A stretch of 64,000 nt of DNA from Novosphingobium sp. (lineage in GTDB: Bacteria > Pseudomonadota > Alphaproteobacteria > Sphingomonadales > Sphingomonadaceae): assembly GCA_046290865.1 (NCBI GenBank), contig JBKBUD010000003.1:8600-72599 (forward strand), given 5' to 3'. The position numbers were made by a program, and so were the translations under genes. Within the stretch, counting starts at the first letter, position 1. Each line of letters starts with the position of its first letter. Below the pieces are notes generated by a model, which saw only the letters and a list, made by a program, of their open reading frames with translations, had not been told where the DNA came from and did not search any database. Of this stretch, positions 32,701-57,493 are shown piece after piece.

Positions 32701-35700
32701 CCGGCACTGCCACGCTTGGCAGCATCAATGCCTCGACCGGAACTGTCGCGATCACGGCGGGAACCCTCTCGTTCGACAACATCCAGTCGCTGACGACAAC
32801 AAGCCTCACAGCTGGCTCGGTCACCGGCAACACGGTCGGTGCAGGAACGGTGCTGACAGTTCGGTCGGCAGGTTCGGTAAATCTCGCAGACGTCACCGCC
32901 GGATCGGTCGATCTCGCCGTGGGCGACCTGCAGATCGGCAGCCTCCTCACCACGAACCTCGCCGCTTTGCGCGCGGACACGATGGCAAACATCGGCACGG
33001 CCAATGTCGGCAGCCTCGATTACCGCGCTGCCTCAGCAAGCTTCGGGACGATCGACACCACTGGGGCTGCGTCGATCATCGGCGGCACCGTTTCGGGCAA
33101 TGCCCTCAACGCTGGCACGCTGCTGTCGATAACGGCAACAGACCTGAATGCGCTGACGCTCGCCGCCAACGGCAACGTCACGCTTGCCGTTACCAACACG
33201 GCAACCCTTGGCACCGTAACTTCGAGCGGCGGTTCGGTCGCGATCGATCCGGCGACATTGACCTTCGATGCTGTCACCGCCTCCGGTGACATTGCGCTGA
33301 GCGGCGGGACGATTACGGGCGGCACCCTTGATGCCGGCGCAAGCATTGGCCTCACGGCGACCGGCGCTCTGACTCTGACCTCGGCAAAGTCGGGGACCAC
33401 ACTGTCGCTCACTGCCGACAGCCTACGGGCAGGTGGTCTTGATGCAGGCAGCGACCTCAATCTTGCGACAACTGCGGACATCACTCTGTCCGACATCGCC
33501 AATGCAGGCGGGGCGGTCCGGGCTACCTTCTCGACATTCGAGTTCGTGGGTCTCAACGCGGGTGGCCTGCTCGATCTTGCCGGGACCGATCTGGTTGGAA
33601 CCAACCTTGGCGGGCCGAGCATCTCGGCAGGCGGGGACGCCAGCATCGCCCTGACTGGCCGCTACGCGGTGACCGGGCTGACCGTGGACGGAAACCTCCT
33701 GTTCGGTGCCCAGACCGCAAGCGGCGCGGCCATCGACGTGATCGGCAATGCCGACCTCAATGTCGCAGGTCTGACCTCGGTTTCCACGTACTTTGCGGGT
33801 GGCACCCTGTCGCTGACCGCTGGCGAGCTTTCGGCACTGGCGCTCAGCGGCGGTAACGTCGATGCGCGCATTGCCGGGGCGGCGACGCTGGATAGCGGCG
33901 ATGCGGGGGCAAACTTCGCCCTCTCGGCAGCTTCGCTCAACGCCGGCACGTTCCGTACAGGTGGCGATCTTTCGCTTTCCACCACCGGCTCGCTGACCAT
34001 TTCGGGAGATGTCAACGCGGCAGGCAACCTTGCGATTGTCGCTGGCGATCTCGATGCCTTCTCGCTCGCCGCTGATGGGGGCATCGACCTGAATGTCAGC
34101 AACAATGCAAATGTCGATTTTGCCGTAGCCGGACAACTTCTGCACGTCGTTGCGGGAGGTCTGTCGCTGCAAAGCCTGTCGGCTGCCGACATCGCGATCG
34201 ATGCGGGTTCGGTGAGCGGCGACGGGGTGAGCGCAGCAAACTCGCTGAGCATCATCTCCACCGGGTTGGTCGATCTCGGCGCTGCCCTTGCCGGCGGCGC
34301 GCTCTCCATCGCCTCGCGCAACCTGACCGCCTCGATCGTGCAATCGCGCGGCGGAAACGTGAGTCTTTCGGTCGGCGCTTTGGCAAATCTGGGCGACGTC
34401 TCCGCTCTGGCTGGAGACATCTCCGCCACGGCGGGCCGCCTGAACTTCGTCTCTGCAAGCGCCAGTGGACAGGTCCAACTCGGCGGTGTCGTGATCGGCG
34501 GGGGCGTCGTGAACGCCGGAACGTCCGCGCTTGTAAGCGCGACGAATTCCATGGTTCTCGATACGATCACCGCAGGAGCAGGCGTCGATCTGAATGGCGG
34601 CGACATCGACATCAACGCGGTGAATGCCGGCACCTTTGCCGACTATGCTGGCCGCGATGTGCGGGTCGGGACAACGAAGGCCGGTACCTTCGCGACAGTC
34701 GCTACCCGCAACTTCGCGTTCGACGCGCTGAGCGCCACCGACAACGTCGGCATACGCACAACACGCGACATTGTCGGCGGCACGATCGATGCCGGGACCA
34801 CTCTCGACATCGACGCAACCGGCGTCGTGTCTCTCGATGTCGCCAGGAGCGGCGATGCCCTGCGTGCCCGGTTCTCCACGCTCGGCTTCAACCTGCTCGA
34901 CGCAGGCGGACGACTTGATCTGGCTGGCACCGATCTCACCGGCACGAACATCGTCGCTGGCGGCAATGCCCTCATCGCACTGACCGGCAGCTATGCGGTC
35001 GGCTCGATCACGGGCGTTGGCCAACTCGATCTCACCGCGAAAAGCGCCAGAAGCAACACGATCGCCATTGATGGCAATGTTTCGCTGACAGTTGCCGACA
35101 CGGCGGCCTTGGGCACGATCACCTCGAACACCGGCTCGGTCACGATCGATCCTGCACTGCTCACCTTCGATGCCATCACCGCGGCGGGCGACATCGCGTT
35201 GAGCGGGGGCACGATCACTGGTGGAACGCTCGAGGCAGGCGCTGCAATCGGGGTGACTGCAAGCGGTGCGCTTACCTTGGCCTCTGCCAAGGCCGGCACC
35301 AACCTTGCGCTCGGCGCGGACACTCTTCAGTCCGGTGCGCTCGACGCAAGTGGCAACATCGCGTTGACTGTTGCGAAGACTGCCGCGCTGACCGGTGTTG
35401 CCAACGCTGGCGCCGATTTCTCGAGCACGGCCGGTTCCCTCGACTTCACCACGATCAATGCCGGCGCGGCTGCCATCTTCGGCGGCGGCTCGATCAATGG
35501 GACACTGGTGGATGCCAAGGGAGCGGTCTCGGCATCGCTCTCGGCCGGCGCGACGCTGGACAGCGTCAACAGCGGTACAACTCTTGCCATCGGTGCGGAC
35601 TCGATCTCGGCAACGACCCTCACCGCAGGAACGGGCCTGTCGCTGTTTGCCAACAAGACGATGGCTATCGGCACAGCGACGGCAGGCGGCGACGCCTCGC

Positions 35701-38700
35701 TCAACGCGGCTTCGATCCAGTTCGACAGCGTTTCCAGCACCGGCCTTGCCGCGATCGCTGGCGGTACTGTCGCTGGTGGCATTCTGGCCGGAACCGGCGG
35801 GATCGACATTGCGGTTACGGGCCCTGTCACGCTGACCAGTGCGACGTCCGGCGCAGGCCTCACCATCGATGCCGCCAGTCTTGTCACGACTTCGCTCACG
35901 GCAGCAGGCGATGCCCGCCTGACTGCGACAGGCAATCTCGATCTTGGCACGACGCAGGCTGGTGGCAGCCTCTATGCCCAAGGTCTCGACCTGTCGTTCC
36001 TGTCGCTCACAGGGCAGACCGTGGAGCTTGCCGGACGAACGATAACCGGCGGCACCATCGACGCTCGCTCGACCCTGCTGGTCCAGGCAGACGGCCTGGC
36101 AAGGCTCGACCGCGCGCAGGCAGGAAGTACCGCGGAATTCTATGTCGGCAGCCTCGAATTGCCGGAAATCTTCGCGGGCGATGTGGCGGTCGGCGCGCGC
36201 GGCCCAGCGAAGCTCGGCAGGATCGACGCAGCAGGAATCGTCAGCATCGCGGCCAATTCGCTCGAGTTTTCGGCAATCAACGCTGCCGGGCCGGCAAGCA
36301 TTTCTGCGGGAAGCATCACCGGTGGCACGATTTCCGGCCGGTTCGGCGTCTCATTGAACTCGGACGGGGCAATCGCGATAAGTTCAGCGCGCGCATCGAG
36401 GTCGTTGACCGTAAGCGGCGCAAGCGTGACTGCCGACAGCCTTTCTAGCGAAGACAGCCTGATTGTTCACGCTACGGGCAATGTTTCGGTCGGGGCGCTA
36501 TATGGTGCATTGGCCGCAGCAATCGACGGGAACGAGATTACTTTCGACATAGCGAGCAGTGACGCAGTTGTCGGCATAACCGGGACTTCGGTCAAAGGCG
36601 GTCGCATCGATACACCCGGCTCGGTTTTCGTCTCCGCAACCGGGAATGTCGCGCTCACCGCAGTCGATGCGGGCTTTGGCGTTCAGATAGCAGCAAATAC
36701 GCTCGATCTGCCATCGTTGCAGGCTGGACGGGACGTGCGGCTAACGATCACCAATACTGCCACGCTTGGCACGGTGACTTCGACCGGCGGTTCCGTCACG
36801 ATCGACCCGACCCTCCTGACGTTCAGCAGCATAACCTCGGCCAATGCCATCAGCCTGTCGGGCGGCACCATCACTGGCGGGACGCTGGATGCGGGCACCA
36901 GCATCGATGTCAACGCGACTGGCAACCTTGTCCTCGACCTGGCCGATGCCGGAACCACGCTCTCGCTGGTCGGCGCAAATGTAGAGGTAGGCTCACTGCT
37001 TTCCGGGGGGAGCAGTTCCGTCTCCGCTCAGGACCTTGTCAGGATCACTAGTGCGATCAATTCGGGTGGCGACATATCGGTCACCGCCGCCCGGTTCACG
37101 ACACCGCTGCTGCAGTCGAACAGCGGAAACGTCTCCCTCACGATCAGTGGTCGGGCGGACCTGACAAACATCATCGCCTTTGGCGGCGATCTCACCATCA
37201 ACGCTGGAACCTTGCGTTTCACTTCTGCGGGCGCACTTGGCGCGGTCAGGCTGGGTGGCGCAGACCTTGCCGGTACGACGGTCACTTCCGGGACCTCCAC
37301 AAACATTGCCGCTGGCACCGTTGCGAACATCGGAACGGTGACCGCAGGATCAAGCGTCACGCTTGGCGGACCCAATGTCACGGTGACCAAGGTTACCGCT
37401 GGCACCTTCGCCGATTTCGACGGCCGGGCGATAAACGTTGCCGAGACGACGGCGGGAACCACCGCTTTCATCGATGCGCGCGACTTCACCTTCAGCAAGC
37501 TCACAGCTGGTGAAAGCGTCGAGATCCTCAGCTCGGGCAATACCACCGGCGGCACGATCGACGCGGGAACGACGCTGAAGATCTCTGCACGCGGTGATGT
37601 AAATCTCGATGATGCCAAGGCAGGCGGTGCGATCACGATCGGCGCGGCGAACATAAATGCGCTGACGATCACCGGCGATGCAGGTCTCTCGCTTACTGCC
37701 ACCAACGCGATCGATCTAGGCACCGTCAAGGTTCTGGGCGCGTTTGACCTCTCCGGTGCGTCGCTCGTCCTGAGCTCCAGCAGTTCGGGCCTCGACAGCA
37801 CTTTCTCGCTCACCGGCAATGCCACGATCGGCACCGTCGCGGCGGGTCTCGCCAGCACCGGTCAGAACCTCGTCCAGGTCGTGGTGCAGGCTCTCGGCAA
37901 CTCCTTCACCGGTGGCACGCTGGTGCCGGTATTCGATGTGGTGCAGGGACAGACGATCACGGTCTCGTCTTCCACCAACGACCTGTGGAGTGCCGGTTTC
38001 CTGCCACGCTTCTCGGACGGCGATGGCCTCATCGCCTTCCGCCTCGCCACGGCGCAGGACGATTCCGGCGTGCAGCCCGGTACCCAGATCGGTGCAGCCT
38101 TCGGAAACCTGACCATCGGCAACTTCAGCGCACCGTTCGGAGCGCTTGTCGGGCAGATCGGCAACCAGAACGTGCTGATCGGCGCCAATGGCACGGTCAC
38201 AGCGCCGGCAACCGGCACCCTCTCGGTCGGCTACTGGGATTCCAACGCGGGTGACAACACCGGCTCCATCGCCTTCACCTTTGGCAATGGCACGGGCGGC
38301 GGCGGCGCCTCGAACCCCGCAAATGTCAGCATCTCGACCGGCGGCAACCTGACGGTCAGCTCGGCCAATGCCAGCAGCGCGATAACGCTCGACGCGGCCG
38401 GCGCGCTCAAGCTCGACAGTGCCGACGCCGGGACCGCCCTGTCCCTGACAGGCAACACGATCGACGCAGGAACACTCAAGGCCGGGACCGACATCACGCT
38501 TGCCAGCACCGGAGCGAGCGTGATCGGCTCGGCAACAGCAGGTGGTCGTTTCTCGGCGGACATCGGCGCGCTCGATTTCACGCTGATCGATGCAGTGGGC
38601 GCGGTCGACATCGCCTCGCTTGCCGGTGTCGGTGGCGGTGACATCCGTTCGGGCGCCAGCATCGTGGTCGATGCTTCTGGTAGTATCACGATCCGGGATG

Positions 38701-47056: not shown

Positions 47057-48478
47057 ATGCAGGGTATCATCTTGGGAATCGGGCGACTGGCGGCACTTTG
47101 CCGGGCGATTCCGCGCTCCGGCGCTGTGGCTGTTGCAGCGTGTCTGGCCATGGCCGGAGCCTCGCTCGGCGCCTCCTCGCTCATCTCGCCTGCTGCAGTT
47201 CAGGCTCAGGGCACTGCACCGGCAGTTCTGCGCGGACACGTCGGAGTCGCCTCGTGCGCCGGTTCCACCTGCCATGGCCGCAGCGTCGCCGACGGAGCGG
47301 TTGTCCGTCAGGATGAACTCATGCGCTGGCAGGAAGATTCCTCGCCCTCCGGAGCGCACAGCCGCGCGTGGCGCGTGATTCAGGAGCCGCGCGGTCAGGC
47401 AATCGTCCGCCGCATGGGCCTTGATACCGCTGGCGTGCAGCGCGAATGCGCCGGTTGCCATGCCTCGCCGGGCTCCTCGCGCCCGTCCGATGGCGTCGAT
47501 TGCGAAGCCTGTCATGGTGCATCCGGCGGCTGGCTTTCCACCCACTACACCGTCGGTGCCAGCCACGCCCGCAACGTCGCGCAAGGCATGACCGATCTGA
47601 CCCGCCCGCAGGTCAAGGCCCAGGTCTGCCTCGATTGCCACTTCTCCGGTGATGCCAAGGGCCAGTTCATCGCCCACCGCATCATGGCCGCCGGCCACCC
47701 GCGCATCTCGTTCGAACTGGACCTGTTCACCACGCTCCAGCAGCACCATGACGAGGACGCCGACTACGTCCAGCGCAAGGGCGGCAAGACCAACTCGATG
47801 CGCATGTGGGCCGTGGGCCAAGCCGAAGCCGTCAAGCGCAGCCTCGAACTCTACAGCCAGCCGGCCCGGGCGATGGACGGGATCTTCCCCGAATTCACCT
47901 TCTACGATTGCCACTCCTGCCACCGCCGCATTTATGACAGCGAGGACGGCAACGTTACCGCCGTGCGCAATCCGGGCCGCCCCGTCGATCTCGGCACGCC
48001 GCCCTACAACGACGAGAACATGATTATGCTTCTCGCCGCCGCCCGCGTCGTCGCACCCGATGCGGCTGCCACGTTCGACGCCCGCGCCAAGGCCTTCCAC
48101 AAGGCGATGCTGGCCAACCGCGCCGAAACCGTCGCCGCGGCTCAGGCGCTGCGCCAGTCGGCCGATGCGCTGTCTTCGCGCTTTGCCTCTGCCAGCTTCA
48201 CCCGCGAACAGACCTTCGCCATCATGGACTCCATCGCCAGCGACGCCATCGGCGAGCGCTTCACCGATTACGAAGGCGCAGTGCAGTCGGTCATGGCGGT
48301 CGACACCCTGCTCAACGGCCTCGTCAATCAGGGCATGGTCGCGCCGGGTTCGGCCAATGGCCTGCGTGTCCAGATCAACCAGGCCTATGCCGCCGTTCGT
48401 GATCCCAACGGCTTCCAGCCCCTTGCCTTCCGCCGCGCTCTCGGCAGCGCGGTACGTTCGATCCGGAGCCTTCGCTGA
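47057..48478 (+). CDS. Periplasmic multihaem c-type cytochrome (c554-like; 4 CxxCH + 1 CX4CH)
   Basis: Signal peptide; CAGSTCH, CAGCH, CEACH, CLDCH and CHSCH; helical C-terminal domain. Confidence 0.88.
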   Translation: MQGIILGIGRLAALCRAIPRSGAVAVAACLAMAGASLGASSLISPAAVQAQGTAPAVLRGHVGVASCAGSTCHGRSVADGAVVRQDELMRWQEDSSPSGAHSRAWRVIQEPRGQAIVRRMGLDTAGVQRECAGCHASPGSSRPSDGVDCEACHGASGGWLSTHYTVGASHARNVAQGMTDLTRPQVKAQVCLDCHFSGDAKGQFIAHRIMAAGHPRISFELDLFTTLQQHHDEDADYVQRKGGKTNSMRMWAVGQAEAVKRSLELYSQPARAMDGIFPEFTFYDCHSCHRRIYDSEDGNVTAVRNPGRPVDLGTPPYNDENMIMLLAAARVVAPDAAATFDARAKAFHKAMLANRAETVAAAQALRQSADALSSRFASASFTREQTFAIMDSIASDAIGERFTDYEGAVQSVMAVDTLLNGLVNQGMVAPGSANGLRVQINQAYAAVRDPNGFQPLAFRRALGSAVRSIRSLR

Positions 48479-50466
48479 TGCGCATGCCGTTGGCTTTCCG
48501 GCAGACCACCGCCGTCGCACTCGCGCTCTCTCTCACACTGTCAGGGTGCGGCGGCGGTGATTCTGGCTCGGGCGGTACGTTCACGCCGACTCCCACGCCG
48601 ACCTCGGCCTCGCGCTTCTTCGCCGATCCTGCGCAGGAAGCGCTGACGGCTGCCGAAGTCCAGCAGATCATCGCGCAGGCCGTGGGTGAGGCCAAGGCGC
48701 TCAATTACCCCGCCATCATCGCTGTGGTCGATCGTGTCGGCAATGTCCTTGCCGTATTCCGCATGAACGGTGCGGCCACCCGCATGCTGATCAGCCAGCG
48801 CACTGCCACCGGCGAAATCTCCCCGCGCGAGGTCGATGCCCAGGGCCTCGAAGTCGAAGCGACGATGGGGGCGATCTCCAAGGCCGTGACTGCCGCCTAC
48901 CTGTCGTCCAGCGGGAACGCCTTCTCCACCCGGACGGCCAGCATGATCGTGCAGGAGCATTTCCCTCCCGCACCCAACACGCCCGGCCTGGAATCCGGCC
49001 CGCTGTTCGGCGTGCAGTTCAGCCAGTTGCCCTGTTCCGACCTTGCTGCCCGCTTCGCCACCGGTAACGCCGGAAGCGCCGCCTTCATCGGCCCCAAGCG
49101 CGCCCCGCTGGGCCTTTCTGCTGACCCTGGCGGATTGCCGCTCTACAAGAATGGCGTCGTCGTCGGCGGTATCGGCATCATGGCCGATGGCGACTATGCC
49201 TATGACCCCGACGTTACGGACGTCGATGGCGATCCCGAAGAGTTCATGGCGCTCGCCGGTATCCAGGGCTTTGCCCCGCCAGCCGAGATCCGCGCCGACC
49301 GCATCCCGGTTGACGGATCGACCCTGCGCTTCTCCGATGCCCGCGTCGAAGGCTTGCACCCTCTGCAGACCAGCTTCTCTGCGATCAACAACACTGCCGG
49401 AACCCTGATCCCGGTGCGCGGATACTACGACGGAACCGCCGTCCTTGCCGGAACGCCTTACGGCACCGAAGCCAGCGGCATCCGCAGGGCCACCTCTGCC
49501 GAATTTTCGCTCGCAGATGCCTATGTGCTGAGTAACGGTTCTGGCACCAATCGTTACCCGATCAAGGCCGGCACCGATGCCGCTGCGGTCGGCACGCCGT
49601 TGACCGCTGCCGAAGTCCGCGCCGTGCTCGAAGAGGCCTTCACGATCATGACGCGCGCCCGCGCGCAGATCCGCCGTCCGCTCGACAGCCGCGCGCAAGT
49701 CTCGATCTCGGTGGTCGATACTTACGGCGAGGTCCTCGGCCTCGTCCGCGGGCCAGACGCGCCGATCTTCGGCATCGACGTCTCGCTGCAGAAGGCGCGA
49801 ACGGCAGCGTTCTTCTCCAACCCGGTCGCTGCACAACAGCTTCAGGACGATACCGACGCCGAGATCCCCGCGTTCGTCCAGCGCGCTCGCGATTTCCTTG
49901 GGGATCAGACGGCGCTGACGGGCAAGATCGCCTTTGCCGATCGCTCTGGCGGCAACTTGTCCCGTCCGTTCTTCCCCGACGGCGAGGTCGGCCGCCCGCA
50001 CGGCCCGTTCTCGCGTCCGATCAATGATTTCAGCCCTCTCGCCACCGGTCTCCAGATCGCCCTGGTCAAGGCCAACCTGCTCCAGCACGCGGTCTTCGTC
50101 GAAGGCTCGCTGAATGCGCGCGACGTGGTGCAGCGCTGCACGGCGGTCCCCGATACCCCGACCGGCAAGAAGCGCCTCGCCAACGGCATCCAGATTTTCC
50201 CCGGCTCGGTCCCGATCTACCGCAACGGCAAGCTCGTCGGCGCCATCGGCATTTCGGGTGACGGCATCGATCAGGACGACATGATCGCCTTCCTCGGTAC
50301 GCACAACGGCGGGGCCAAGGTCGGGACCATCGGCAATGCGCCCAAGGAAATCCGCGCTGACACCATCGTCGTGCCGGTCGGGCAGGGCGTCCGCCTGCGC
50401 TACGTCAACTGCCCCTTCGCCCCGTTCCTCGATACGAGCGAACAGAATGTCTGCGAGGGCAAGTGA
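48478..50466 (+). CDS. Lipoprotein with two GlcG/HbpS-like haem-binding domains
   Basis: LSGC lipobox and PT linker; two repeats of (I/V)(A/S)VVDxxG...KAxTAA...G(G/S)xPxY(K/R)NGxxVG(G/A)IGI. Confidence 0.82.
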   Translation: MRMPLAFRQTTAVALALSLTLSGCGGGDSGSGGTFTPTPTPTSASRFFADPAQEALTAAEVQQIIAQAVGEAKALNYPAIIAVVDRVGNVLAVFRMNGAATRMLISQRTATGEISPREVDAQGLEVEATMGAISKAVTAAYLSSSGNAFSTRTASMIVQEHFPPAPNTPGLESGPLFGVQFSQLPCSDLAARFATGNAGSAAFIGPKRAPLGLSADPGGLPLYKNGVVVGGIGIMADGDYAYDPDVTDVDGDPEEFMALAGIQGFAPPAEIRADRIPVDGSTLRFSDARVEGLHPLQTSFSAINNTAGTLIPVRGYYDGTAVLAGTPYGTEASGIRRATSAEFSLADAYVLSNGSGTNRYPIKAGTDAAAVGTPLTAAEVRAVLEEAFTIMTRARAQIRRPLDSRAQVSISVVDTYGEVLGLVRGPDAPIFGIDVSLQKARTAAFFSNPVAAQQLQDDTDAEIPAFVQRARDFLGDQTALTGKIAFADRSGGNLSRPFFPDGEVGRPHGPFSRPINDFSPLATGLQIALVKANLLQHAVFVEGSLNARDVVQRCTAVPDTPTGKKRLANGIQIFPGSVPIYRNGKLVGAIGISGDGIDQDDMIAFLGTHNGGAKVGTIGNAPKEIRADTIVVPVGQGVRLRYVNCPFAPFLDTSEQNVCEGK

Positions 50467-52472
50467 TGCAGCAGGTCGCTCTCCTTCTCGCACCGGTCCT
50501 CGGCATCACCCAGCCGCATGTCCAGCCCGCGCCACTGACGTTCTACCTGCAGGACGCGTCAGGATCGGCACCGGGAACGGCCGAGCCCCAGCAAGCGCCA
50601 ACGGTTGACAGCAAGGCGCCGCTCCCCGGTGGCGAGACCGACGCCGACGGTGCGCTGATCGATGGCCGCCGCCGCCCCGGCTTCAACAAGCAGCTCCCCG
50701 AGAAGGTCGAGCAGGACAATCCCGGCGCCGTCAATGCTCCGCCGCCGGAGGCGTTCTACGACAAGTATGACGGCGAAGGCCCTGTCGGCGATCTCGGCCT
50801 CGACGTCAGCCTGCCCGATCGCTGGCGCATCATGGCCTCGCTGTGTCCCAAGAAGGATCCGGCGACTGGCAAGAAGGACCGCTCTCTTTACACCCTGTTC
50901 CCGAAGCTCGAATTTGCCTGCCATTCGCAGCTCGATCCGTTTCATCACAACCTCCTGAAGGGCGACCGCCCGCTCGCACGCGGCAAGCGTCCCGGCTTCC
51001 TCAAGGGGGACGACTGGTACCTGCTGGCAGGCGCGGTTTCCGATACCGTGGTCGAGCCGCGCAGCTTCCCGATCCCGGTTGGCAATCAGACGACGACCAA
51101 CCCCAACGAGATCGACACTTTCGGCCGCAGCCACAGCCTCGTGCTGTCGCAGACCTTCATCGCGAGCCTCTCGCTGCTCAAGGGCATGACCGCCTACAAG
51201 CCGCCGGTGGTCGAGTACCGCATCGCCATCGCCGGCAACATCAACCACGTCGAAGTCCCGGAACGCCGCGTCCTGTTCGTCGAACCGTCCAAGGGCACCA
51301 AGCGCACCGACGGCTTCATCGGCCTGCAGGAAGCCTTCATCGACTACCACATTGGCCGGTTCGACACGAAGCGCTACGATTTCATCTCCTTGCGCACCGG
51401 CATCCAGCCGATGCAGTCGGATTTCCGCGGCTTCCTGTTCAACGACAACCAGCTTGGCATCCGCCTCTTCGGCAACCGTGACAACAACCGCGTCCAGTTC
51501 AATCTCGCGGCGTTCTGGCGGCTCGAGAAGGAAACCAACTCGGGCCTCAACGACATCAGCCGCGCCCCGCGCAATGACTGGGTGTTCATGGCGAACCTTT
51601 ATCGCCAGGACTTCCCCGTCGTCGGCCTGACCAGCCAGATTTCGGTCACCTACAACATGAACCGTGAGCGCAACGAGATCACGGTCGACACCAACGGCTT
51701 CCCTGTCCGTCCGGCGCTGATCGGCGACTTGCGGGGCCGCGAGTATGACGTCGTCTATCTCGGCTATGCGGCTGACGGCCATATCGGCCGCCTCAACCTC
51801 ACCGCGCAGGCCTATGCCGCGCTGGGTGAGGACCGGAACAATTTCCTCACCAGCCGCGCGGCCGAGATCAAGGCCTTCATGGCTGCGGCCGAGGTCAGCT
51901 ACGACTTCGACTGGACCCGCGTTCGGCTGTCGGGCCTCTGGGCCAGCGGTGACAGCGACCCTTACGACAAGACCGAAGGCGGCTTCGACGCGATCTTTGA
52001 AAACCCCCAGTTCGCCGGTGCCGATACCAGCTACTGGATCCGCCAGACCATCCCGTTCGCGGGCGGCGGCCGCAACATTTCGGTCAATGGTCGCAACGGC
52101 ATCCTCAATTCGCTGCGCTCGTCGAAGGAACAGGGCCAGTCGAACTTCACCAACCCCGGCACCATGCTGGTCGGCCTCGGCACCGATTTCGACCTGACGC
52201 CCACCTTGCGCGTCTCGACCAACGTCAATCACCTCTGGTTCGAGAACACCAAGATCCTGCAGGTCCTGCGGAACGAAGGCTCGATCCCGCGCGACATCGG
52301 CTGGGACGCCTCGGTCTCGGCGATCTGGCGCCCCAACGCCTCGCAGAACCTCGTCTTCCGCCTCTCGGGCGCCGTGCTCGATCCGGGCGCGGGCTTCGAT
52401 GATCTCTTTGCCCAGATGGGCAAGGCAAGCCGCTTCTACTCCGTCCTCGCCAATGCGACCCTGGCCTTCTGA
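50466..52472 (+). CDS. Probable outer-membrane beta-barrel protein
   Basis: N-terminal extension followed by many amphipathic aromatic-rich strands; ends YSVLANATLAF (terminal-Phe beta-signal). Confidence 0.72.
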   Translation: MQQVALLLAPVLGITQPHVQPAPLTFYLQDASGSAPGTAEPQQAPTVDSKAPLPGGETDADGALIDGRRRPGFNKQLPEKVEQDNPGAVNAPPPEAFYDKYDGEGPVGDLGLDVSLPDRWRIMASLCPKKDPATGKKDRSLYTLFPKLEFACHSQLDPFHHNLLKGDRPLARGKRPGFLKGDDWYLLAGAVSDTVVEPRSFPIPVGNQTTTNPNEIDTFGRSHSLVLSQTFIASLSLLKGMTAYKPPVVEYRIAIAGNINHVEVPERRVLFVEPSKGTKRTDGFIGLQEAFIDYHIGRFDTKRYDFISLRTGIQPMQSDFRGFLFNDNQLGIRLFGNRDNNRVQFNLAAFWRLEKETNSGLNDISRAPRNDWVFMANLYRQDFPVVGLTSQISVTYNMNRERNEITVDTNGFPVRPALIGDLRGREYDVVYLGYAADGHIGRLNLTAQAYAALGEDRNNFLTSRAAEIKAFMAAAEVSYDFDWTRVRLSGLWASGDSDPYDKTEGGFDAIFENPQFAGADTSYWIRQTIPFAGGGRNISVNGRNGILNSLRSSKEQGQSNFTNPGTMLVGLGTDFDLTPTLRVSTNVNHLWFENTKILQVLRNEGSIPRDIGWDASVSAIWRPNASQNLVFRLSGAVLDPGAGFDDLFAQMGKASRFYSVLANATLAF

Positions 52473-55400
52473 TGACCCAGCTCATGACCCAAACGCGCCG
52501 CCTTCGCACTCTCTCGCTGGCATGGCTGGTCGCCGCGCTTGCTGCGCTGCTGGTCCCGAGCGCGCTCTACGCCTCGGGCGAGGAACCCGCGCAGAAGGTC
52601 AGCCACACCCGCGCCCCCGCCGCGCCGCGCGGCCAGCCGGGTGACACTGCGGAAGAGCAGTGGGCCTACGTCGACAAGCAGAACGCCGGGTGCGTCAGCT
52701 GCCACACCAAGAGCGATCACCGCACCATGCACGCCAGCCCGGCGGTGGTGCTGTCCTGCGCCGATTGCCACGGCGGCAACACCAAGGTCATGGCCGACCG
52801 CTCGTGGAACCGCAATTCGATCGAATACATTGCCGCGCTGAAGGACGCGCATGTCCTTCCGAAGTATCCGGCGGCTTGGGGCTGGCCCTCTTCGGCCAAT
52901 CCCAAGCGCTCCTATGGTTTGCTCGCCAAGGAAAGCCCGGAATTCATCCGCTTCATCAACCCGTCGGACTATCGCGTCGCCCGCGATTCCTGCGGCGCCT
53001 GCCACATGCAGATCATCGAAGCGTCAGAACGCTCGCTGATGTCGACCGGCGCCATGCTGTGGGGCGGCGCGGCCTACAATAACGGCATCGTCCCCTTCAA
53101 GAACTACCTCTTCGGCGAAAGCTTCACCCGCAATGGCGAGCCCGCCCTGCTCAAGTCCGCGTCGAAGGAAATCGGCCCCGATGGCAAGCCGATGTGGGGG
53201 ACCGTCACGCCGAAGGAGAAGGCGCGCGGCGCATTGCCGATCATGTATCCGCTGCCGCGCTGGCACACGATCCCGCCGGGCGACGTCTTCCGCGTGTTCG
53301 AGGACGGCGGCCGCACGATCAACCCGCAGTTCCCCGAAATCGGCTTGCCCAACTCGACGGGCCTGATCCAGCGCCTCGACGAGCCGGGCCGCCCTGACCT
53401 GAAGCAGTCCAACCGTGGCCCCGCCACCGGCCTGCGCGTCGCGATTCCGGTGCTCAACATCCACAAGACGCGCCTCAATGACCCGTTCCTGTTCCAGATG
53501 GGCACCAACGACCAGCCGGGCGACTACCGCTCCTCGGGCTGCGCTGCCTGCCATGTCATCTACGCCAACGACCGCGAACCACGCCACTCGCTGAACTACG
53601 GCAAGTGCGGGCGGGATGGCCAGACGATCACCGCCGACCCGACGATCAATTCCCTGCGCGAAGGCCAGCACCGCAAGGGCGCCTACGGCTCCTATGACGC
53701 TGAAAAGGCAGAGCATCACGACAAGGTCCGCGGCACCGTGCTCGGCGGCAAGCGTGGTTACCTCGGTGGCGACCGGACCGATCCAGAACAGTCGGCCGAC
53801 ATGGAGGGCGATTGCGCCCGCGCCATCTCGTCTGCCGAACAGCTGGTCTATTCGCCGGGCAAGGGCGTCGCCCCCCATGGTTCGATGGATCATGACAAGA
53901 TGGACCAGGCCTCGGCCCACGCCATGGCCGGTCTGGATGCCAAGGGGCACCCGAAGAAGGATGCCCACGGCGAGGACGCGCACGACTCTGATGGCCCCGT
54001 TGCGATGCAGGATCGCGAACGGGGGCACCCGCTGGTCCACGCCTTCACCCGCGCGATCCCGACGGCGCAGTGCATGAACTGCCACATGCACCAGCCCAAC
54101 ATCTTCCTGAACTCGTACCTCGGTTACACCATGTGGGACTATGAGTCCGACGCGCCGAGCATGTGGCCGGGACCTGAAAACCGCGCGCCAAAGCCCGCCG
54201 GCATGTCCGATGCGGACTACGAGAAGACGTTCAGGAAGCAGTTCTATCCGAATATCGACGAGCAGCGCGAAGTGCTCGATCGCAACCCGGAGGGTGCGTC
54301 CACCCGCGGCCTGTGGCGCGATGTCGAGTTCCTGCGCAACGTCTATGACCTGAACGACAAGCTCGAACGCACCCAGTTTGCCGATTACCACGGCCATGGC
54401 TGGAACTTCCGCGCAATCCTCAAGCGCGATCGCCGCGGCAACCTGCTCGATGACGAAGGCGACATGTCGTCCTACGGCACCGACAAGGCGCACATCATCT
54501 CGCCCGAGGATCCCGAAAAGTTCCGCAAGGCAGGCGAGGGCAAGTTCGTCGAACCGGGCGAAAGCAACCCCGGCAAGGCTGTCCACATGATGGACATCCA
54601 TGCTCAGCTCGGCATGCAGTGCGCCGATTGTCACTTCTCGCAGGACAGCCACGGCAACGGCATGATCTACGGCGAAGTCGCCAATGCGGTCGAGATCGGC
54701 TGCAAGGACTGCCACGGTACGCCGGACAATTACCCGACGCTGCTGACCTCGAACATGGCGGCGCCCGAAAAGGGCAACAACCTCGCGCTGCTGCGCAATG
54801 CCGATGGCCAGCGCCGCTTCGAATGGTTCAATGAGGCCGATGGGCGGCGCGTGCTGGTCCAGCGCTCGATCATCGATCCCAACCTGTCCTGGCGCGTCAG
54901 CCTGGTGAAGGATTCGGTCGACGCTCGCTATGCCGGCAAGATGGATTCCACCGGCAAGCCGATCTTCAACCCGAAGGCCGCGCGTGCCAAGCTCATGGCC
55001 AAGTCCGCGTCAGAGGACGGCGTCTACAAGTTCGGCACCGGCGTGCCCAAGGAAGCCCGCGCCCACCGTGACGACGACATGGCCTGCTTCACCTGCCACC
55101 TGTCGTGGACCACGTCGTGCGCCGGCTGCCACCTGCCGATCGAGGCGAACTGGAAGTCGGCCACGCACAAGTACGAGGAAGACTATACCCGCAACTACGC
55201 GACCTATAACCCGCAGGTCGCGCGCGATGACATGTTCCAACTCGGCAAGCACCAGCGCAACAAGTCGTCCGGCTCCGATCCGGTGCAGTTCGATGCGTCG
55301 GGCAACCCCGTCGCGGGCAAGGCGATCACCGCGCCGATCCGCTCCACCTCGGCGCTGATCCTGTCGTCGACCAACATCAACCGCGAACGCATCTATGTGC

Positions 55401-57061
55401 AGCAGCCGCCGATCTCCTCGATTGGCTACTCCTCACAAGCCTTTGCGCCGCACTTCCCGCACACCGTTCGCAAGAACGAGACCAAGCAGTGCACCGATTG
55501 CCACGTCTCTCAGGACGAGGACAACAACGCCACGATGGCGCAGCTGCTCCTGCTCGGCACCAATTACGTCAACTTTGTCGGCATGAACGCCTGGTTCGGT
55601 CTCGACGGCGGCTTCGAAGCGGTCCGCGTCACCGAATGGGACGAGCCGCAGGCCGTGATCGGCTCCTACCTCCACCGCTATGCCTATCCGGATTACTGGA
55701 AGGAGCATGTCGAGAAGAACGGCCGCGAGTTGAAGAACTGGACGCGCGGCAAGGCCTTCGATGGCAAGCTTTCGGGCGAAACCACCGGGCACGAGCAGTT
55801 CTCGAACATTGTCGAAGGCACCAAGGACTCGGTGCGCTGCCTGCAGATGCGCGGCGAATACATGTACGTCGCCGAAGGAAAGGGCGGCTTCCGCGCCTAC
55901 GACATCGCCGCAATCGGCAACAAAGGCTTCTCCGAACGCATCGTCAACGCGCCGTTCTCGCCGCTCGGCCATGACACGCATGTCGCCACCAGCAACGCCA
56001 CCTGCATGGCGCTGCCGACCAACCAGTCGATCGCGCCCACGCGCAACACGCCCGAGCTGCGCGGCCTCAACCAGGAGCAGCCTTTCTCGCCGATCTACAG
56101 CTATGCCTTCGTCACCGATGCGGTCGAAGGCCTGATCGCGGTCAACGTCGATACGCTGGCCGATGGCGAGTTCCGCAACAACTTCTTCAACCGCGCGCTG
56201 ACCTTCAATCCGAATGGCGTCCTCACCGGTGCCCGCCACATCACGCTGGCCGGTGACTATGCCTACATCGTGACCGACAAGAACCTGGTCACGGTCCACC
56301 TGCCCAAGCCATGGTCGCCGCAGAAGCCGTGCGAAGTCAGTGAGAAGAAGGGCGGCGAGACCTGCCTCGATCCGCGCATCACTTCGGTCGTGCCCTTGCG
56401 CGATCCGCGCGCCACGGCGGTGCAGTTCCGCTACCTCTGGGTGACGACGGCCAATGGCCTCGAACTGATGGACATCACCAACCTCGCACAGCCCAAGGCC
56501 GTCCCCTCGGCCATTGTGCCGCTGGCCGACGCCCGCCGCGTCTATCTTGCGCGCACTTACGCTTATGTCGCGGCCAAGTCGCAGGGTCTGGTCATTGTCG
56601 ACATCACCGCGCCGACGCGTCCGTCAATCTACACCAGCTACACCGCCGACGGGCAGTTGAACGATGCCGAGGACGTGATCGTCGCGTCCACCAACGCCTC
56701 GCTCTTCGCCTATGTCGCCGATGGCCGGAACGGGATGAAGGTGCTGCAGCTGACGTCTCCCGCCAGCCAGCCCAACTTCTACGGCTTCTCGCCCGAGCCC
56801 AAGCCCGAGCTGATCGCCTGGGCCCGCACGCCCACGCCCGCCCTCGCGCTGTCCAAGGGGCTCGACCGTGACCGCGGCGTGGACGAGACGGGTGGGCAGA
56901 TGGCAGTCTTCGGCCGCCTCGGCTCCCGCCCGTTCACGCGGCCGGAAATGGAAGAGCTGTTCCTCAACAGCAAGGGTGATGTCTTCCGCGTTTCCAACGC
57001 TGTCGACATGAGCCTGTGGGTGGGCGCCAAGCCTGCGCCGTTGCTCGCCAGGACGAATTGA
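52472..57061 (+). CDS. Large decahaem c-type cytochrome fused to a C-terminal LVIVD-repeat beta-propeller
   Basis: Signal peptide; ten CxxCH motifs (CVSCH, CADCH, CGACH, CAACH, CMNCH, CADCH, CKDCH, CFTCH, CAGCH, CTDCH); about six YAYVA...GLVIVDI-type repeats. Confidence 0.88.
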   Translation: MTQLMTQTRRLRTLSLAWLVAALAALLVPSALYASGEEPAQKVSHTRAPAAPRGQPGDTAEEQWAYVDKQNAGCVSCHTKSDHRTMHASPAVVLSCADCHGGNTKVMADRSWNRNSIEYIAALKDAHVLPKYPAAWGWPSSANPKRSYGLLAKESPEFIRFINPSDYRVARDSCGACHMQIIEASERSLMSTGAMLWGGAAYNNGIVPFKNYLFGESFTRNGEPALLKSASKEIGPDGKPMWGTVTPKEKARGALPIMYPLPRWHTIPPGDVFRVFEDGGRTINPQFPEIGLPNSTGLIQRLDEPGRPDLKQSNRGPATGLRVAIPVLNIHKTRLNDPFLFQMGTNDQPGDYRSSGCAACHVIYANDREPRHSLNYGKCGRDGQTITADPTINSLREGQHRKGAYGSYDAEKAEHHDKVRGTVLGGKRGYLGGDRTDPEQSADMEGDCARAISSAEQLVYSPGKGVAPHGSMDHDKMDQASAHAMAGLDAKGHPKKDAHGEDAHDSDGPVAMQDRERGHPLVHAFTRAIPTAQCMNCHMHQPNIFLNSYLGYTMWDYESDAPSMWPGPENRAPKPAGMSDADYEKTFRKQFYPNIDEQREVLDRNPEGASTRGLWRDVEFLRNVYDLNDKLERTQFADYHGHGWNFRAILKRDRRGNLLDDEGDMSSYGTDKAHIISPEDPEKFRKAGEGKFVEPGESNPGKAVHMMDIHAQLGMQCADCHFSQDSHGNGMIYGEVANAVEIGCKDCHGTPDNYPTLLTSNMAAPEKGNNLALLRNADGQRRFEWFNEADGRRVLVQRSIIDPNLSWRVSLVKDSVDARYAGKMDSTGKPIFNPKAARAKLMAKSASEDGVYKFGTGVPKEARAHRDDDMACFTCHLSWTTSCAGCHLPIEANWKSATHKYEEDYTRNYATYNPQVARDDMFQLGKHQRNKSSGSDPVQFDASGNPVAGKAITAPIRSTSALILSSTNINRERIYVQQPPISSIGYSSQAFAPHFPHTVRKNETKQCTDCHVSQDEDNNATMAQLLLLGTNYVNFVGMNAWFGLDGGFEAVRVTEWDEPQAVIGSYLHRYAYPDYWKEHVEKNGRELKNWTRGKAFDGKLSGETTGHEQFSNIVEGTKDSVRCLQMRGEYMYVAEGKGGFRAYDIAAIGNKGFSERIVNAPFSPLGHDTHVATSNATCMALPTNQSIAPTRNTPELRGLNQEQPFSPIYSYAFVTDAVEGLIAVNVDTLADGEFRNNFFNRALTFNPNGVLTGARHITLAGDYAYIVTDKNLVTVHLPKPWSPQKPCEVSEKKGGETCLDPRITSVVPLRDPRATAVQFRYLWVTTANGLELMDITNLAQPKAVPSAIVPLADARRVYLARTYAYVAAKSQGLVIVDITAPTRPSIYTSYTADGQLNDAEDVIVASTNASLFAYVADGRNGMKVLQLTSPASQPNFYGFSPEPKPELIAWARTPTPALALSKGLDRDRGVDETGGQMAVFGRLGSRPFTRPEMEELFLNSKGDVFRVSNAVDMSLWVGAKPAPLLARTN

Positions 57062-57077
57062 CCGGTTGGAGAGGAGA

Positions 57078-57101
57078 GCGGGTGCCTCACGGGGCACCCG
57101 C
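57078..57101. terminator. GC-rich hairpin between convergent genes (probable bidirectional terminator)
   Basis: GCGGGTGCC-TCACGG-GGCACCCGC perfect 9-bp stem lying between the stops at 57061 (+) and 57110 (-). Confidence 0.7.
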
Positions 57102-57109
57102 CAATTCTC

Positions 57110-57493
57110 TCAATCCGCATCCAGCAGCAGGATCTCGCACTCCACCTCCATCAGCGGCGCCGGCAACAGCTCATGGTCCACCCGCGTGACTGCCGCATCG
57201 GCCACCAGTTCGCGCCGGAGCTTGAACTCGTGTTCGGGCAGGGTCGTTACGAAGTTCTCACCATCGCTCACCGCATCGCTTCCGGCGAAGCGCAGCACCA
57301 ACCGGTGACGCGCGCCGGAAAAGGTGATGCTCGCCCACGGTGTCTCGTCATGGCTGACCACTTCGGCGTGAGGCCCGCTGATCTCGCGCACCGCGCGCAT
57401 CAATCGCTCGGCAGTCGACGGGCGATGAGCCAGCGGGGGAGGGGCGTTCTCGGAAATCGCCCTGGTCTCGAAGGCGTGAAGATCAAGCAGCAT
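57110..57493 (-). CDS. Hypothetical protein (127 aa)
   Basis: ATG 7 nt after GGAGGG; ETPWASITFSGARH...LPEHEF...LVADA; overlaps the stop of the upstream small gene. Confidence 0.7.
   Translation of the reverse strand: MLLDLHAFETRAISENAPPPLAHRPSTAERLMRAVREISGPHAEVVSHDETPWASITFSGARHRLVLRFAGSDAVSDGENFVTTLPEHEFKLRRELVADAAVTRVDHELLPAPLMEVECEILLLDAD

What the first reader, a model, noticed from the sequence alone, without database searches (positions are those of the whole stretch)
47057..57061. Uncharacterised porin-multihaem cytochrome operon (14-15 haems) in a sphingomonad-like genome
Seen: four genes joined by three consecutive TGATG stop/start overlaps (48476-80, 50464-68, 52470-74) and closed by a hairpin. 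They encode a 4-5-haem cytochrome, a double-GlcG lipoprotein, a beta-barrel ending in Phe and a 1529-aa decahaem-propeller protein; all appear exported. Established: decahaem + beta-barrel pairs (MtrAB, PioAB, MtoAB) carry electrons across the outer membrane, but their decahaems are ~300-aa, densely packed proteins. Here ten haems are spread over ~950 aa with large inserts, and the partners are not Mtr components. Inference: a distinct outer-membrane redox machine, either an electron conduit or a surface/periplasmic oxidoreductase with fixed stoichiometry. No quinol-oxidising partner is encoded here.
Basis: partly seen in the sequence, partly recalled or inferred. Interest (0 to 1): 0.85.

Follow-up and report, generated by a model that had tools for sequence, protein, structure and literature searches.

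The report
Outer half of multihaem electron chain
These four genes are real and strongly conserved. They look like the outer-membrane half of an unstudied electron-transfer system of common oxygen-breathing bacteria, but the barrel is a small AlgE/OprD-type channel rather than a sheath for a haem wire, and what the system reduces or oxidises is unknown.

Summary
Four coupled genes at 47057-57061 encode:
- a pentahaem cytochrome (P1);
- a double HbpS/GlcG lipoprotein (P2);
- an outer-membrane barrel ending in Phe (P3);
- a 1529-aa decahaem protein with an LVIVD propeller (P4).

Distribution: at least 562 species genomes encode a P4 relative, and the 80 loci examined span Alpha-, Beta- and Gammaproteobacteria and Acidobacteriota. 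The order P2-P3-P4 is kept wherever the flank suffices. No experimental study was found.

Barrel: P3 models as 18 strands, closest to AlgE and OprD/Occ channels. MtrB has 26. A threaded haem chain is therefore unlikely.

Partners: they exist but lie outside this window. They are an FAD/NAD(P)H, cNMP-binding, 4Fe-4S protein, a five-helix dihaem-b-type membrane protein, and an FHA-anchored decahaem cytochrome. In most other taxa they sit directly upstream of P2. Within the genus they occur in exactly the same 14 of 36 genomes as P4. They were not found in this 77.6%-complete assembly.

Closest described systems: the predicted PCC4/ptd clusters share this inner unit and P1, but have an unrelated porin and terminal cytochrome.

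Best reading: the outer module of an NAD(P)H-fed envelope electron chain. The scan has reported this system before on other DNA.

The parts
47057..48478 (+). P1: exported pentahaem cytochrome c of 473 aa (4 CxxCH plus a conserved CX4CH) with a helical C-terminal half. It is a homologue of the 'tetrahaem' cytochrome of PCC4/ptd-type clusters.
   Evidence: Motifs. Pfam Cytochrome_C554 at 2.2e-07. 46 of 47 homologues keep CX4CH plus 4 CxxCH. 34% identity over 422 aa, E 3e-75, to the 4-CxxCH cytochrome of the PCC4-type locus L122. Its position varies: upstream in sphingomonads and caulobacters, downstream in other taxa.
48478..50466 (+). P2: lipoprotein of 662 aa (LSGC lipobox, Gly/Ser/Thr/Pro-rich tether) with two HbpS/GlcG-like (DUF336) regions.
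   Evidence: PF03928 at E 1.3e-25 in 3 stretches. Weak PDB sequence hits to EfgA (6bws), 2a2l and the PduO-type domain. A lipobox is present in 40 of 51 homologues. It always lies directly upstream of P3.
50466..52472 (+). P3: outer-membrane 18-strand beta-barrel of 668 aa counted from the ATG (a GTG lies at 50463). It has a disordered but conserved N-terminal extension of about 120-180 aa and a C-terminal aromatic beta-signal.
   Evidence: AF2 model with 18 long antiparallel strands, mean pLDDT 66 and up to about 90 in the barrel. Foldseek top hits are AlgE (E 4.5e-16, TM by target 0.60-0.67), then OprD/Occ and chitoporin. No Pfam family matches. 59 of 59 homologues end in F, Y or W.
52472..57061 (+). 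P4: exported protein of 1529 aa. It has a decahaem region (residues 74-1011, window 52691-55504) and a C-terminal LVIVD beta-propeller (about residues 1118-1510, window 55823-57001).
   Evidence: 10 CxxCH motifs. All are conserved in the alignments. 12 further conserved His residues. LVIVD PF08309 at 4.8e-17. About 5-6 LVIVD-like blades by motif. No sequence or fold match in the PDB.
53669..54016 (+). Clade-specific His/Asp/Lys-rich insert within P4 (about residues 400-515). It is absent or different in most relatives.
   Evidence: Matches in relatives split at about 411/495. The AF2 model has pLDDT below 50 here. Composition is read from the translation.
57064..57115 (+). Strong stem-loop directly after the P4 stop codon. 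It is a possible transcript end, but has no T-run.
   Evidence: Fold -32.1 kcal/mol, z -5.18. Not listed by the terminator scan.

Best explanation
P1-P4 form the periplasm and outer-membrane module of a two-part envelope electron-transfer system.

The inner module is encoded elsewhere in the closest relatives, and directly upstream of P2 in most other taxa. It has three parts:
- c5, a cytoplasmic protein with an FAD/NAD(P)H domain, two cNMP-binding domains and 4Fe-4S clusters;
- c6, a 5-helix membrane protein with two W-x3-H-x13-H motifs, predicted to bind two b haems;
- c4, a decahaem cytochrome c with a cytoplasmic FHA domain and one membrane helix.

Inferred electron path: NAD(P)H, then FAD, FeS and two b haems across the inner membrane, then the ten c haems of c4, the five of P1 and the ten of P4.

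I place P4 in the periplasm at the outer membrane, together with the lipoprotein P2 and the 18-strand channel P3. On this reading P3 lets a small or polymeric solute pass between the outside and P4, whose propeller is the likely binding or catalytic end. It does not sheath a haem wire.

Outward flow, meaning reduction of an external or periplasmic acceptor, is favoured. NAD(P)H lies at low potential, and the membrane potential helps electrons move outward.

Shown here: gene content, conservation, co-occurrence and the barrel fold. Inferred: cofactor content of c6, direction of flow, localisation of P4, and the physical complex. The acceptor is unknown.
For: 1. The order P2-P3-P4 is kept in every locus with enough flank, from Sphingomonadales to Burkholderiales, Woeseiaceae and Acidobacteriota.

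2. 17 of 20 loci from the alphaproteobacterial sample read c5-c6-c4-P2-P3-P4, and the Rhodospirillaceae, beta, gamma and acidobacterial loci that reach far enough upstream read the same; c5 lies downstream in several Burkholderiales loci.

3. Phylogenetic profile in the genus: P4 and c4 occur in exactly the same 14 of 36 genomes and in 0 of 24 genomes from other families of the order. In a phylum sample, 7 of 7 P4-positive genomes are c4-positive. Related genomes are not independent samples.

4. c5 carries Pyr_redox, two cNMP-binding and 4Fe-4S domains. c6 has at least two W-x3-H-x13-H motifs in 23 of 23 homologues and SGxxG in 21 of 23. This is the ferric-reductase-like dihaem-b signature described for the PCC3/PCC4 inner-membrane protein (PMC5566968). 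c4 has an FHA domain, one TM helix and 10 CxxCH in 38 of 38 homologues.

5. P3 is an 18-strand AlgE/OprD-like barrel.

6. P4 has a Sec-type signal and no lipobox. P2 has a lipobox.

7. P4 has 12 conserved non-motif His residues, enough for bis-His ligation of all ten haems.
Against: - The inner module was not found in this organism's assembly. The assembly is 77.6% complete with a median contig of 3.2 kb, and a flank-synteny check was inconclusive. This strain may run the operon without the inner module.
- No direct evidence shows that the proteins bind each other, or where P4 sits.
- Barrel-cytochrome gene adjacency is the hallmark of trans-outer-membrane conduits, and LVIVD repeats are frequent in surface proteins.
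- Haem ligation, and hence 'relay' versus 'enzyme', cannot be read from a haem-free model with pLDDT 61.
- The direction of flow rests on thermodynamic reasoning only.
Confidence: 0.5

Rival explanations
1. A true trans-outer-membrane porin-cytochrome conduit, functionally like MtrCAB or Geobacter Pcc. Part of P4 or P1 plugs or crosses P3 and the LVIVD propeller is exposed on the cell surface. This would allow reduction of insoluble acceptors such as Fe/Mn oxides, humics or electrodes.
For: - The barrel gene is translationally coupled to multihaem cytochrome genes.
- LVIVD repeats are described as common on cell surfaces (bioRxiv 10.1101/2022.05.06.490989).
- P3 has a long, conserved, disordered N-terminal extension that could hold a partner.
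- From my own knowledge: Cyc2 shows that a small barrel can hold one haem domain.
Against: - P3 has 18 strands and is closest to AlgE and OprD channels. From my own knowledge, MtrB has 26 strands.
- P4 is 1529 aa with widely spaced haems and no lipobox.
- The MtrA/DmsE and MtrC/OmcA models are far below their cut-offs.
- No secretion genes are linked to the operon.
Confidence: 0.2
2. An electron-uptake system. P4 oxidises an external donor such as Fe(II) or Mn(II), and electrons flow inward, as hypothesised for PCC4 by He et al. 2017.
For: PCC4-type clusters share the inner unit and P1. They were first found in Fe(II) oxidisers and Hyphomicrobium (PMC5566968). The Ferrigenium NHC unit is expressed during Fe(II) oxidation.
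Against: - Most carriers named are genera I know as aerobic heterotrophs (Novosphingobium, Erythrobacter, Caulobacter, Sphingopyxis).
- Inward flow to an NAD(P)-linked flavoprotein is uphill and opposed by the membrane potential, and no coupling site is evident.
- The Ferrigenium unit was expressed under all conditions tested, not specifically under Fe(II) oxidation.
Confidence: 0.1
3. A self-contained periplasmic multihaem enzyme (P4, fed by P1 from the ordinary cytochrome c or quinol pool) with its own substrate porin (P3) and accessory lipoprotein (P2). In this strain it works independently of any c5-c6-c4 unit.
For: - The inner unit was not found in this assembly.
- In the nearest relatives it is unlinked, on another contig.
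- Wide haem spacing and large inserts look enzyme-like.
- There are weak profile similarities to NrfA, NrfB and ActA haem packing and to ExtM over 51 residues.
Against: - Co-occurrence with c4 is strict in 14 of 14 genus genomes and 7 of 7 phylum-sample genomes.
- The assembly is incomplete.
- There are enough conserved His residues for bis-His ligation of all ten haems, so no open catalytic haem is evident.
Confidence: 0.15

Closest known systems
PCC4 predicted porin-cytochrome cluster (He, Barco, Emerson and Roden 2017, PMC5566968). By its described gene content I take it to be the same kind as the ptdABCDEFG cluster of marine Alphaproteobacteria (bioRxiv 10.1101/2023.11.21.568154). Both are predictions with no experimental test.
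   Same: - The inner unit matches: a FAD/NAD(P) plus cNMP/4Fe-4S protein, a 5-TM inner-membrane protein with two W-x3-H-x13-H motifs and SGxxG, and a decahaem cytochrome.
- P1 is a full-length homologue (34% identity, E 3e-75) of the 4-CxxCH cytochrome in a PCC4-type locus.
- A porin gene lies next to the multihaem cytochrome genes.
   Different: - The terminal module differs. PCC4/ptd has a pentahaem protein of about 600-640 aa (NrfA COG, C-terminal beta-sandwich) and a porin of about 535 aa.
- Neither shows detectable homology to P4 or P3 (hhalign probability 24% over 39 columns, and 0.2%).
- PCC4/ptd has no HbpS/GlcG lipoprotein and no LVIVD propeller.
- Here the inner unit is not linked to the operon.
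- I recognised the PCC4-type loci (L121, L122) by gene content, not by comparison with the published sequences.
MtrCAB / MtoAB / PioAB porin-cytochrome conduits
   Same: A decahaem cytochrome gene lies next to an outer-membrane barrel gene. The haem chain is plausibly long enough to cross the periplasm.
   Different: - The barrel has 18 strands and is AlgE/OprD-like, not 26 strands.
- The decahaem protein has 1529 aa with a propeller, not a compact MtrA of about 300 aa.
- The DmsE and MtrC family models are far below their cut-offs.
- The predicted electron source is a cytoplasmic NAD(P)H flavoprotein acting through a dihaem b protein, not a CymA-type quinol dehydrogenase.
Ferrigenium straubiae 'NHC' cluster: an FHA-anchored nonahaem cytochrome, a 5-TM protein and a [4Fe-4S] protein (bioRxiv 10.64898/2026.01.22.701106, section 6.3.2)
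   Same: It has the same three-gene inner unit as the c5-c6-c4 partner of this operon. Stand-alone units of this kind were seen here in L102-L104.
   Different: It has no P1-P4 genes next to it. The authors propose inward flow to quinone. That unit is not present in this window.
AlgE alginate export barrel and OprD/Occ substrate channels
   Same: The 18-strand barrel fold of P3 matches (Foldseek E 4.5e-16 to 1e-8). UniRef names one homologue 'Alginate export domain-containing protein'.
   Different: There is no Pfam Alginate_exp match, sequence identity is 11-13%, and there are no polysaccharide genes nearby. P3 also has an N-terminal extension of 120-180 aa.
NOX / ferric reductase (FRD) and MsrQ-type transmembrane dihaem b electron carriers (my own knowledge and PMC5566968)
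   Same: The logic is the same: cytoplasmic NAD(P)H/flavin, then two b haems across the membrane, then an acceptor on the outer side. The H-x13-H pairs sit on two helices.
   Different: c6 matches Pfam Ferric_reduct, cytochrome b561 and DUF4405 only below threshold. The acceptor here is a chain of 25 c haems. The flavoprotein carries cNMP-binding domains and FeS clusters.

Membership tests
MtrAB/MtoAB/PioAB-type porin-cytochrome complex | A large (about 26-strand) MtrB-type barrel able to sheath a decahaem cytochrome | tested here: not met
   The AF2 model has 18 strands. The best fold matches are AlgE, OprD/Occ and chitoporin, and no MtrB appears among the top 50.
MtrAB/MtoAB/PioAB-type porin-cytochrome complex | A compact MtrA/DmsE-family decahaem cytochrome (TIGR03508) or an MtrC/OmcA family member (TIGR03507) | tested here: not met
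   P1 scores 18.2 and 16.5 bits against cut-offs of 192 and 209. P4 does not match these models.
MtrAB/MtoAB/PioAB-type porin-cytochrome complex | Barrel gene adjacent to a multihaem cytochrome gene | tested here: met
   P3 overlaps P4 by TGATG, and the order is conserved in all loci with enough flank.
PCC4 / ptdABCDEFG predicted cluster | A 5-TM inner-membrane protein with two W-x3-H-x13-H motifs and SGxxG, next to an FeS/flavoprotein and a decahaem cytochrome | tested here: inconclusive
   Met in partner loci of relatives: 23 of 23 and 21 of 23 for the motifs, domains, and strict co-occurrence. Not found in this 77.6%-complete assembly.
PCC4 / ptdABCDEFG predicted cluster | Periplasmic 'tetrahaem' cytochrome (PtdD-like) | tested here: met
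   P0001 against the 4-CxxCH cytochrome of the PCC4-type locus L122: 34% identity over 422 aa, E 3e-75, with the CX4CH motif aligned.
PCC4 / ptdABCDEFG predicted cluster | PCC4-type porin (PtdB-like) | tested here: not met
   hhalign of the P3 profile against the L122 porin-like protein gives probability 0.2%.
PCC4 / ptdABCDEFG predicted cluster | [quoted passage not shown] | tested here: not met
   hhalign of the P4 profile against the L122 pentahaem protein aligns only 39 columns around two haem motifs, probability 24%.
HbpS/GlcG-like (PF03928, DUF336) | Match above the Pfam gathering score | tested here: met
   P2 scores 90.4 bits against a cut-off of 25, in 3 stretches.
LVIVD repeat beta-propeller (PF08309) | Match above the Pfam gathering score, with repeated blades | tested here: met
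   P4 scores 61.4 bits against a cut-off of 20.2. About 5-6 LVIVD-like motifs lie between residues 1136 and 1430. The propeller fold itself was not modelled.
AlgE / alginate export (PF13372) | 18-strand barrel fold | tested here: met
   Foldseek E 4.5e-16, TM by target 0.60-0.67.
AlgE / alginate export (PF13372) | Sequence family membership and a polysaccharide-export gene context | tested here: not met
   No Pfam hit even at E 10. The neighbours are cytochromes, not alg genes.

The most novel reading that the evidence does not exclude
Ordinary aerobic heterotrophs (sphingomonads, caulobacters and many others) carry a signal-gated, quinone-independent electron-export pathway, controlled through cNMP-binding and FHA domains. 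It would run from cytoplasmic NAD(P)H through FeS clusters, two b haems and 25 c haems to a propeller-bearing terminal protein at a dedicated outer-membrane channel. In effect this is a bacterial NOX/ferric-reductase principle extended across the whole envelope. Its job would be to reduce an external substrate, for example Fe(III) or Mn oxides or chelates, humics, or O2 to extracellular superoxide.
Probability: 0.35. Interest if true: 0.85.

Novelty: new variant of a known kind. Interest (0 to 1): 0.6.

Why it matters
The module occurs in at least 562 species genomes, and many of those named belong to genera that I know as abundant aerobic heterotrophs of water and soil. It has no tested function. 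If the inferred chain is real, it is a route for cytoplasmic reducing power to reach the cell envelope or the outside without passing through the quinone pool.

That would bear on open questions such as how heterotrophs make extracellular superoxide, reduce iron or manganese, or interact with humics. It would also widen the porin-cytochrome concept beyond Mtr-type sheathed wires.

Several carriers are cultured genera (Novosphingobium, Blastomonas, Erythrobacter, Caulobacter), so the question can be tested directly by genetics.

Tried and rejected
- **Complex prediction.** P3 (residues 62-668) was folded with the P4 propeller (1118-1510), both with alignments. The score was 0.01 and the tool gave no verdict. 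I do not use it either way.
- **Fold of the P4 haem domain.** The AF2 model was poor (pLDDT 60.7). Foldseek against the PDB found nothing at E <= 0.001, and VIA-align wide found nothing at Z >= 2. The model is too large and haem-free, so this shows nothing about novelty of the fold.
- **PDB by sequence.** The single sequence gave nothing. The profile gave only weak ActA, NrfA and NrfB hits at E 1e-3 to 3e-2.
- **ESM Atlas, residues 520-1100.** Only generic multihaem clusters appeared, and there was no structure search.
- **Literature on LVIVD plus multihaem.** This led only to the Tenderiales uet cluster, which has different proteins.
- **Searches for any study in Novosphingobium or Sphingomonadales.** Nothing relevant was found.
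- **Promoter and terminator scan.** It found no sigma-70-like site, and the four terminator-like sites are all on the minus strand and fewer than in shuffles.
- **Search for c4, c5 and c6 in the own assembly.** c4 and c6 gave no hit; c5 gave only partial domain hits, E 4.8e-14 at best.
- **Deletion versus non-assembly of the inner unit.** I mapped the G019 partner locus onto the own contigs. The flanks fall on 2-4 kb contigs, and C364 is not syntenic beyond the rpoN-side flank. The result is inconclusive.
- **Is P3 a PCC4 porin, or P4 a duplicated PtdA?** Both ideas are rejected by hhalign.
- **RNA evidence.** One metatranscriptomic library (X2) holds a few near-identical contigs. DNA carry-over cannot be excluded, so this is only a weak hint.

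Full report
**1. Observation**

- P1: 47057-48478
- P2: 48478-50466
- P3: 50463/50466-52472
- P4: 52472-57061

Each junction is a TGATG overlap.

P1 carries four CxxCH motifs plus CAGSTCH. P4 carries ten CxxCH motifs at residues 74, 96, 174, 357, 534, 717, 744, 872, 883 and 1007.

Pfam gives the following:
- multihaem families for P1 and P4;
- HbpS-like PF03928 for P2 (E 1.3e-25, three stretches);
- LVIVD PF08309 for the P4 C-terminus (E 4.8e-17);
- nothing for P3.

NCBIfam gives no equivalog. The DmsE and MtrC models score about 17-18 bits against cut-offs near 200. The best hit is a 51-residue stretch of ExtM.

The stem-loop after P4 is strong (-32.1 kcal/mol, z -5.2) but has no T-run.

The neighbouring genes are unrelated: cysS, a 2-hydroxyacid dehydrogenase, a ThDP enzyme and an aldehyde dehydrogenase upstream; an S24 repressor, a metallo-beta-lactamase-fold protein, plsX and fabH downstream. 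The operon is therefore self-contained in this window.

**2. Conservation**

P4 has thousands of relatives, all named hypothetical, 'LVIVD repeat-containing' or 'multiheme cytochrome'. The nearest are from Novosphingobium. P3 behaves the same way.

The 80 kept loci come from the following groups:
- Sphingomonadales
- Caulobacterales
- Rhodospirillaceae
- Burkholderiales
- Woeseiaceae
- Pseudomonadales
- Acidobacteriota

In every locus with enough flank the order P2-P3-P4 is kept. P1 lies upstream in sphingomonads and caulobacters, and downstream in the others, sometimes on the opposite strand.

Conserved features across homologues:
- exactly ten CxxCH in 66 of 69 P4 homologues;
- CX4CH plus four CxxCH in 46 of 47 P1 homologues;
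- a C-terminal aromatic residue in 59 of 59 P3 homologues;
- a lipobox in 40 of 51 P2 homologues.

Within the genus the operon is patchy: 14 of 36 other genomes have it. It was found in 0 of 24 genomes from other families of the order.

**3. The barrel**

With a 35-sequence alignment, AlphaFold2 models P3 as 18 long antiparallel strands (residues 184-667) after a disordered but conserved N-terminal region of about 120-180 residues. Mean pLDDT is 66, reaching about 90 in barrel blocks.

Foldseek places it next to AlgE (E 4.5e-16, TM by target 0.60-0.67), then OprD/Occ channels and chitoporin.

It also argues against a threaded haem chain. From my own knowledge, Mtr-type sheaths have 26 strands, whereas 18-strand barrels of this class are narrow solute or polymer channels.

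**4. Partners outside the window**

I clustered the neighbours across the 80 loci and annotated the recurrent ones. Three recurrent genes stood out:
- c5: about 816 aa, with Pyr_redox FAD/NAD(P), two cNMP-binding domains and 4Fe-4S diclusters.
- c6: about 289 aa, with four to five predicted helices (five in the Ferrigenium and PCC3/PCC4 descriptions), no Pfam family above threshold, and weak cytochrome b561, DUF4405 and ferric-reductase similarity. At least two W-x3-H-x13-H motifs occur in 23 of 23 homologues and SGxxG in 21 of 23.
- c4: about 586 aa, with a cytoplasmic FHA domain, one membrane helix and ten CxxCH in 38 of 38 homologues.

A CHASE2-adenylate cyclase, a metallophosphoesterase and a CcmH-like TPR protein are also frequent neighbours.

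Among 20 loci fetched around c4 from an alphaproteobacterial sample, 17 read c5-c6-c4-P2-P3-P4.

In the genus, c4 is present in exactly the 14 genomes that have P4. In a 400-genome phylum sample, all 7 other P4-positive genomes are c4-positive. Because related genomes are not independent, I treat these counts as strong co-occurrence, not as a statistical test.

In the four nearest complete relatives the c5-c6-c4 unit lies on a different contig from the operon.

In the window's own assembly the unit was not found. That assembly is 77.6% complete, in 413 contigs with a median length of 3.2 kb. The flank contigs are too short, and partly non-syntenic, to tell loss from non-assembly.

**5. Literature**

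Three texts describe related predicted clusters. None includes experiments on function.

- *He et al. 2017 (PMC5566968).* They defined PCC4 as a porin, periplasmic cytochromes with 4, 5 and 10 haems, an FeS protein and a conserved 5-TM inner-membrane protein. That protein has two W-x3-H-x13-H motifs and SGxxG, and they liken it to ferric-reductase domains.
- *A marine oxygen-deficient-zone preprint (10.1101/2023.11.21.568154).* It names ptdABCDEFG, which has the same content.
- *A Ferrigenium preprint (10.64898/2026.01.22.701106).* It describes the FHA-nonahaem, 5-TM and [4Fe-4S] trio on its own.

I found PCC4-type loci in my sample, L121 and L122. In L122 a 4-haem, a 5-haem and a porin-like gene stand divergent from c4-c6-c5; in L121 they follow c4 on the same strand, with a second 4-haem gene after the porin.

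Comparisons with the L122 proteins:
- P1 is a clear homologue of the PCC4-type 4-CxxCH cytochrome (34% identity, E 3e-75).
- P3 shows no detectable homology to the PCC4-type porin.
- P4 shows no detectable homology to the PCC4-type pentahaem protein.

The system here therefore shares the inner unit and P1 with PCC4/ptd, but uses a different outer module: P2, P3 and P4.

Stand-alone inner units also exist, in L102-L104, some with c5 and c6 fused. The inner unit looks like a general electron-export cassette combined with different terminal modules.

**6. Mechanism**

Shown by this work: gene content, domain content, conservation, co-occurrence and the barrel fold.

Inferred:
- c6 binds two b haems and passes electrons across the inner membrane from the c5 flavin and FeS clusters to c4.
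- P1 bridges c4 to P4.
- P4 sits in the periplasm at the outer membrane. It has a Sec signal and no lipobox, and no secretion genes are linked.
- P4 sits there together with the lipoprotein P2 and the channel P3.
- Flow is outward, because NAD(P)H is a low-potential donor and the membrane potential favours outward electron movement.

The cNMP and FHA domains, and the frequent cyclase neighbour, suggest that the chain is gated by signalling.

Whether P4 is a relay or an enzyme remains open. Twelve conserved non-motif His residues would allow bis-His ligation of all ten haems. The haem-free model is poor, and no structural relative was found.

**7. Other evidence**

One metatranscriptomic library holds near-identical contigs. 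One of them, 528 nt with 2 mismatches, spans the P3/P4 junction (52077-52604). DNA carry-over cannot be excluded, so this is only a weak hint of expression.

The complex prediction gave no verdict.

**8. Verdict**

The system is a new variant of a predicted but uncharacterised kind (PCC4/ptd-like envelope multihaem systems). It is widespread and testable.

The scan has already reported this same system from other genomes. Those notes gave me the lead to the PCC4 paper. I had found the ptd and Ferrigenium texts independently.

Interest is moderate to high for the system as a whole. It is lower for this window, which holds only the outer half in a fragmentary assembly.

Noticed in passing
window 23697-40895 (+): A single ORF of 5732 aa lies upstream and ends 38 bp before cysS. 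I did not examine it.
   Followed up: no
window 53669-54016 (P4 residues about 400-515): A His/Asp/Lys-rich, low-confidence insert is specific to this Novosphingobium clade. Relatives' alignments break at about 411/495. It could be a metal-binding loop or merely a disordered linker.
   Followed up: partly
L102:5050-8406 and L104:5880-9287: In two genomes of another family, the FAD/cNMP/FeS protein and the dihaem-b-type membrane protein are fused into one ORF of 1118-1135 aa. An FHA cytochrome with 8-9 CxxCH follows, and there are no P1-P4 genes nearby. The fusion supports a direct c5-c6 partnership.
   Followed up: partly
L121:10919-17022 and L122:4347-9309: These are PCC4/ptd-type loci, with a 4-haem gene, a 5-haem gene and a porin of about 535 aa ending in ...RRKF or ...RWKF next to c4-c6-c5. 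L121 has a second P1-like gene after the porin.
   Followed up: partly
L119:6262-13734: This locus has c5-c6-c4 and a P1-like 4-CxxCH cytochrome but no porin or terminal cytochrome within 20 kb. It is a third arrangement of the cassette.
   Followed up: no
window 52077-52604: A 528-nt contig from a metatranscriptomic library (run X2) matches with 2 mismatches and bridges the P3/P4 junction. Further short near-identical contigs lie at 47832-47930 and 55649-55791.
   Followed up: partly
loci L015-L070, for example L037:535-2610 and L037:13596-14450: In many sphingomonad loci a CHASE2-adenylate/guanylate cyclase, a calcineurin-like phosphoesterase and a CcmH-like TPR protein accompany the cluster. 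This fits cyclic-nucleotide control and dedicated cytochrome maturation.
   Followed up: partly
window 50463-50540 (P3 N-terminus): In sphingomonads, P3 starts with a short uncharged hydrophobic stretch (for example MQQVALLLAPVLG...) rather than a canonical signal peptide. Homologues in Acidobacteriota, Burkholderiales and Rhodospirillaceae have canonical signals.
   Followed up: partly
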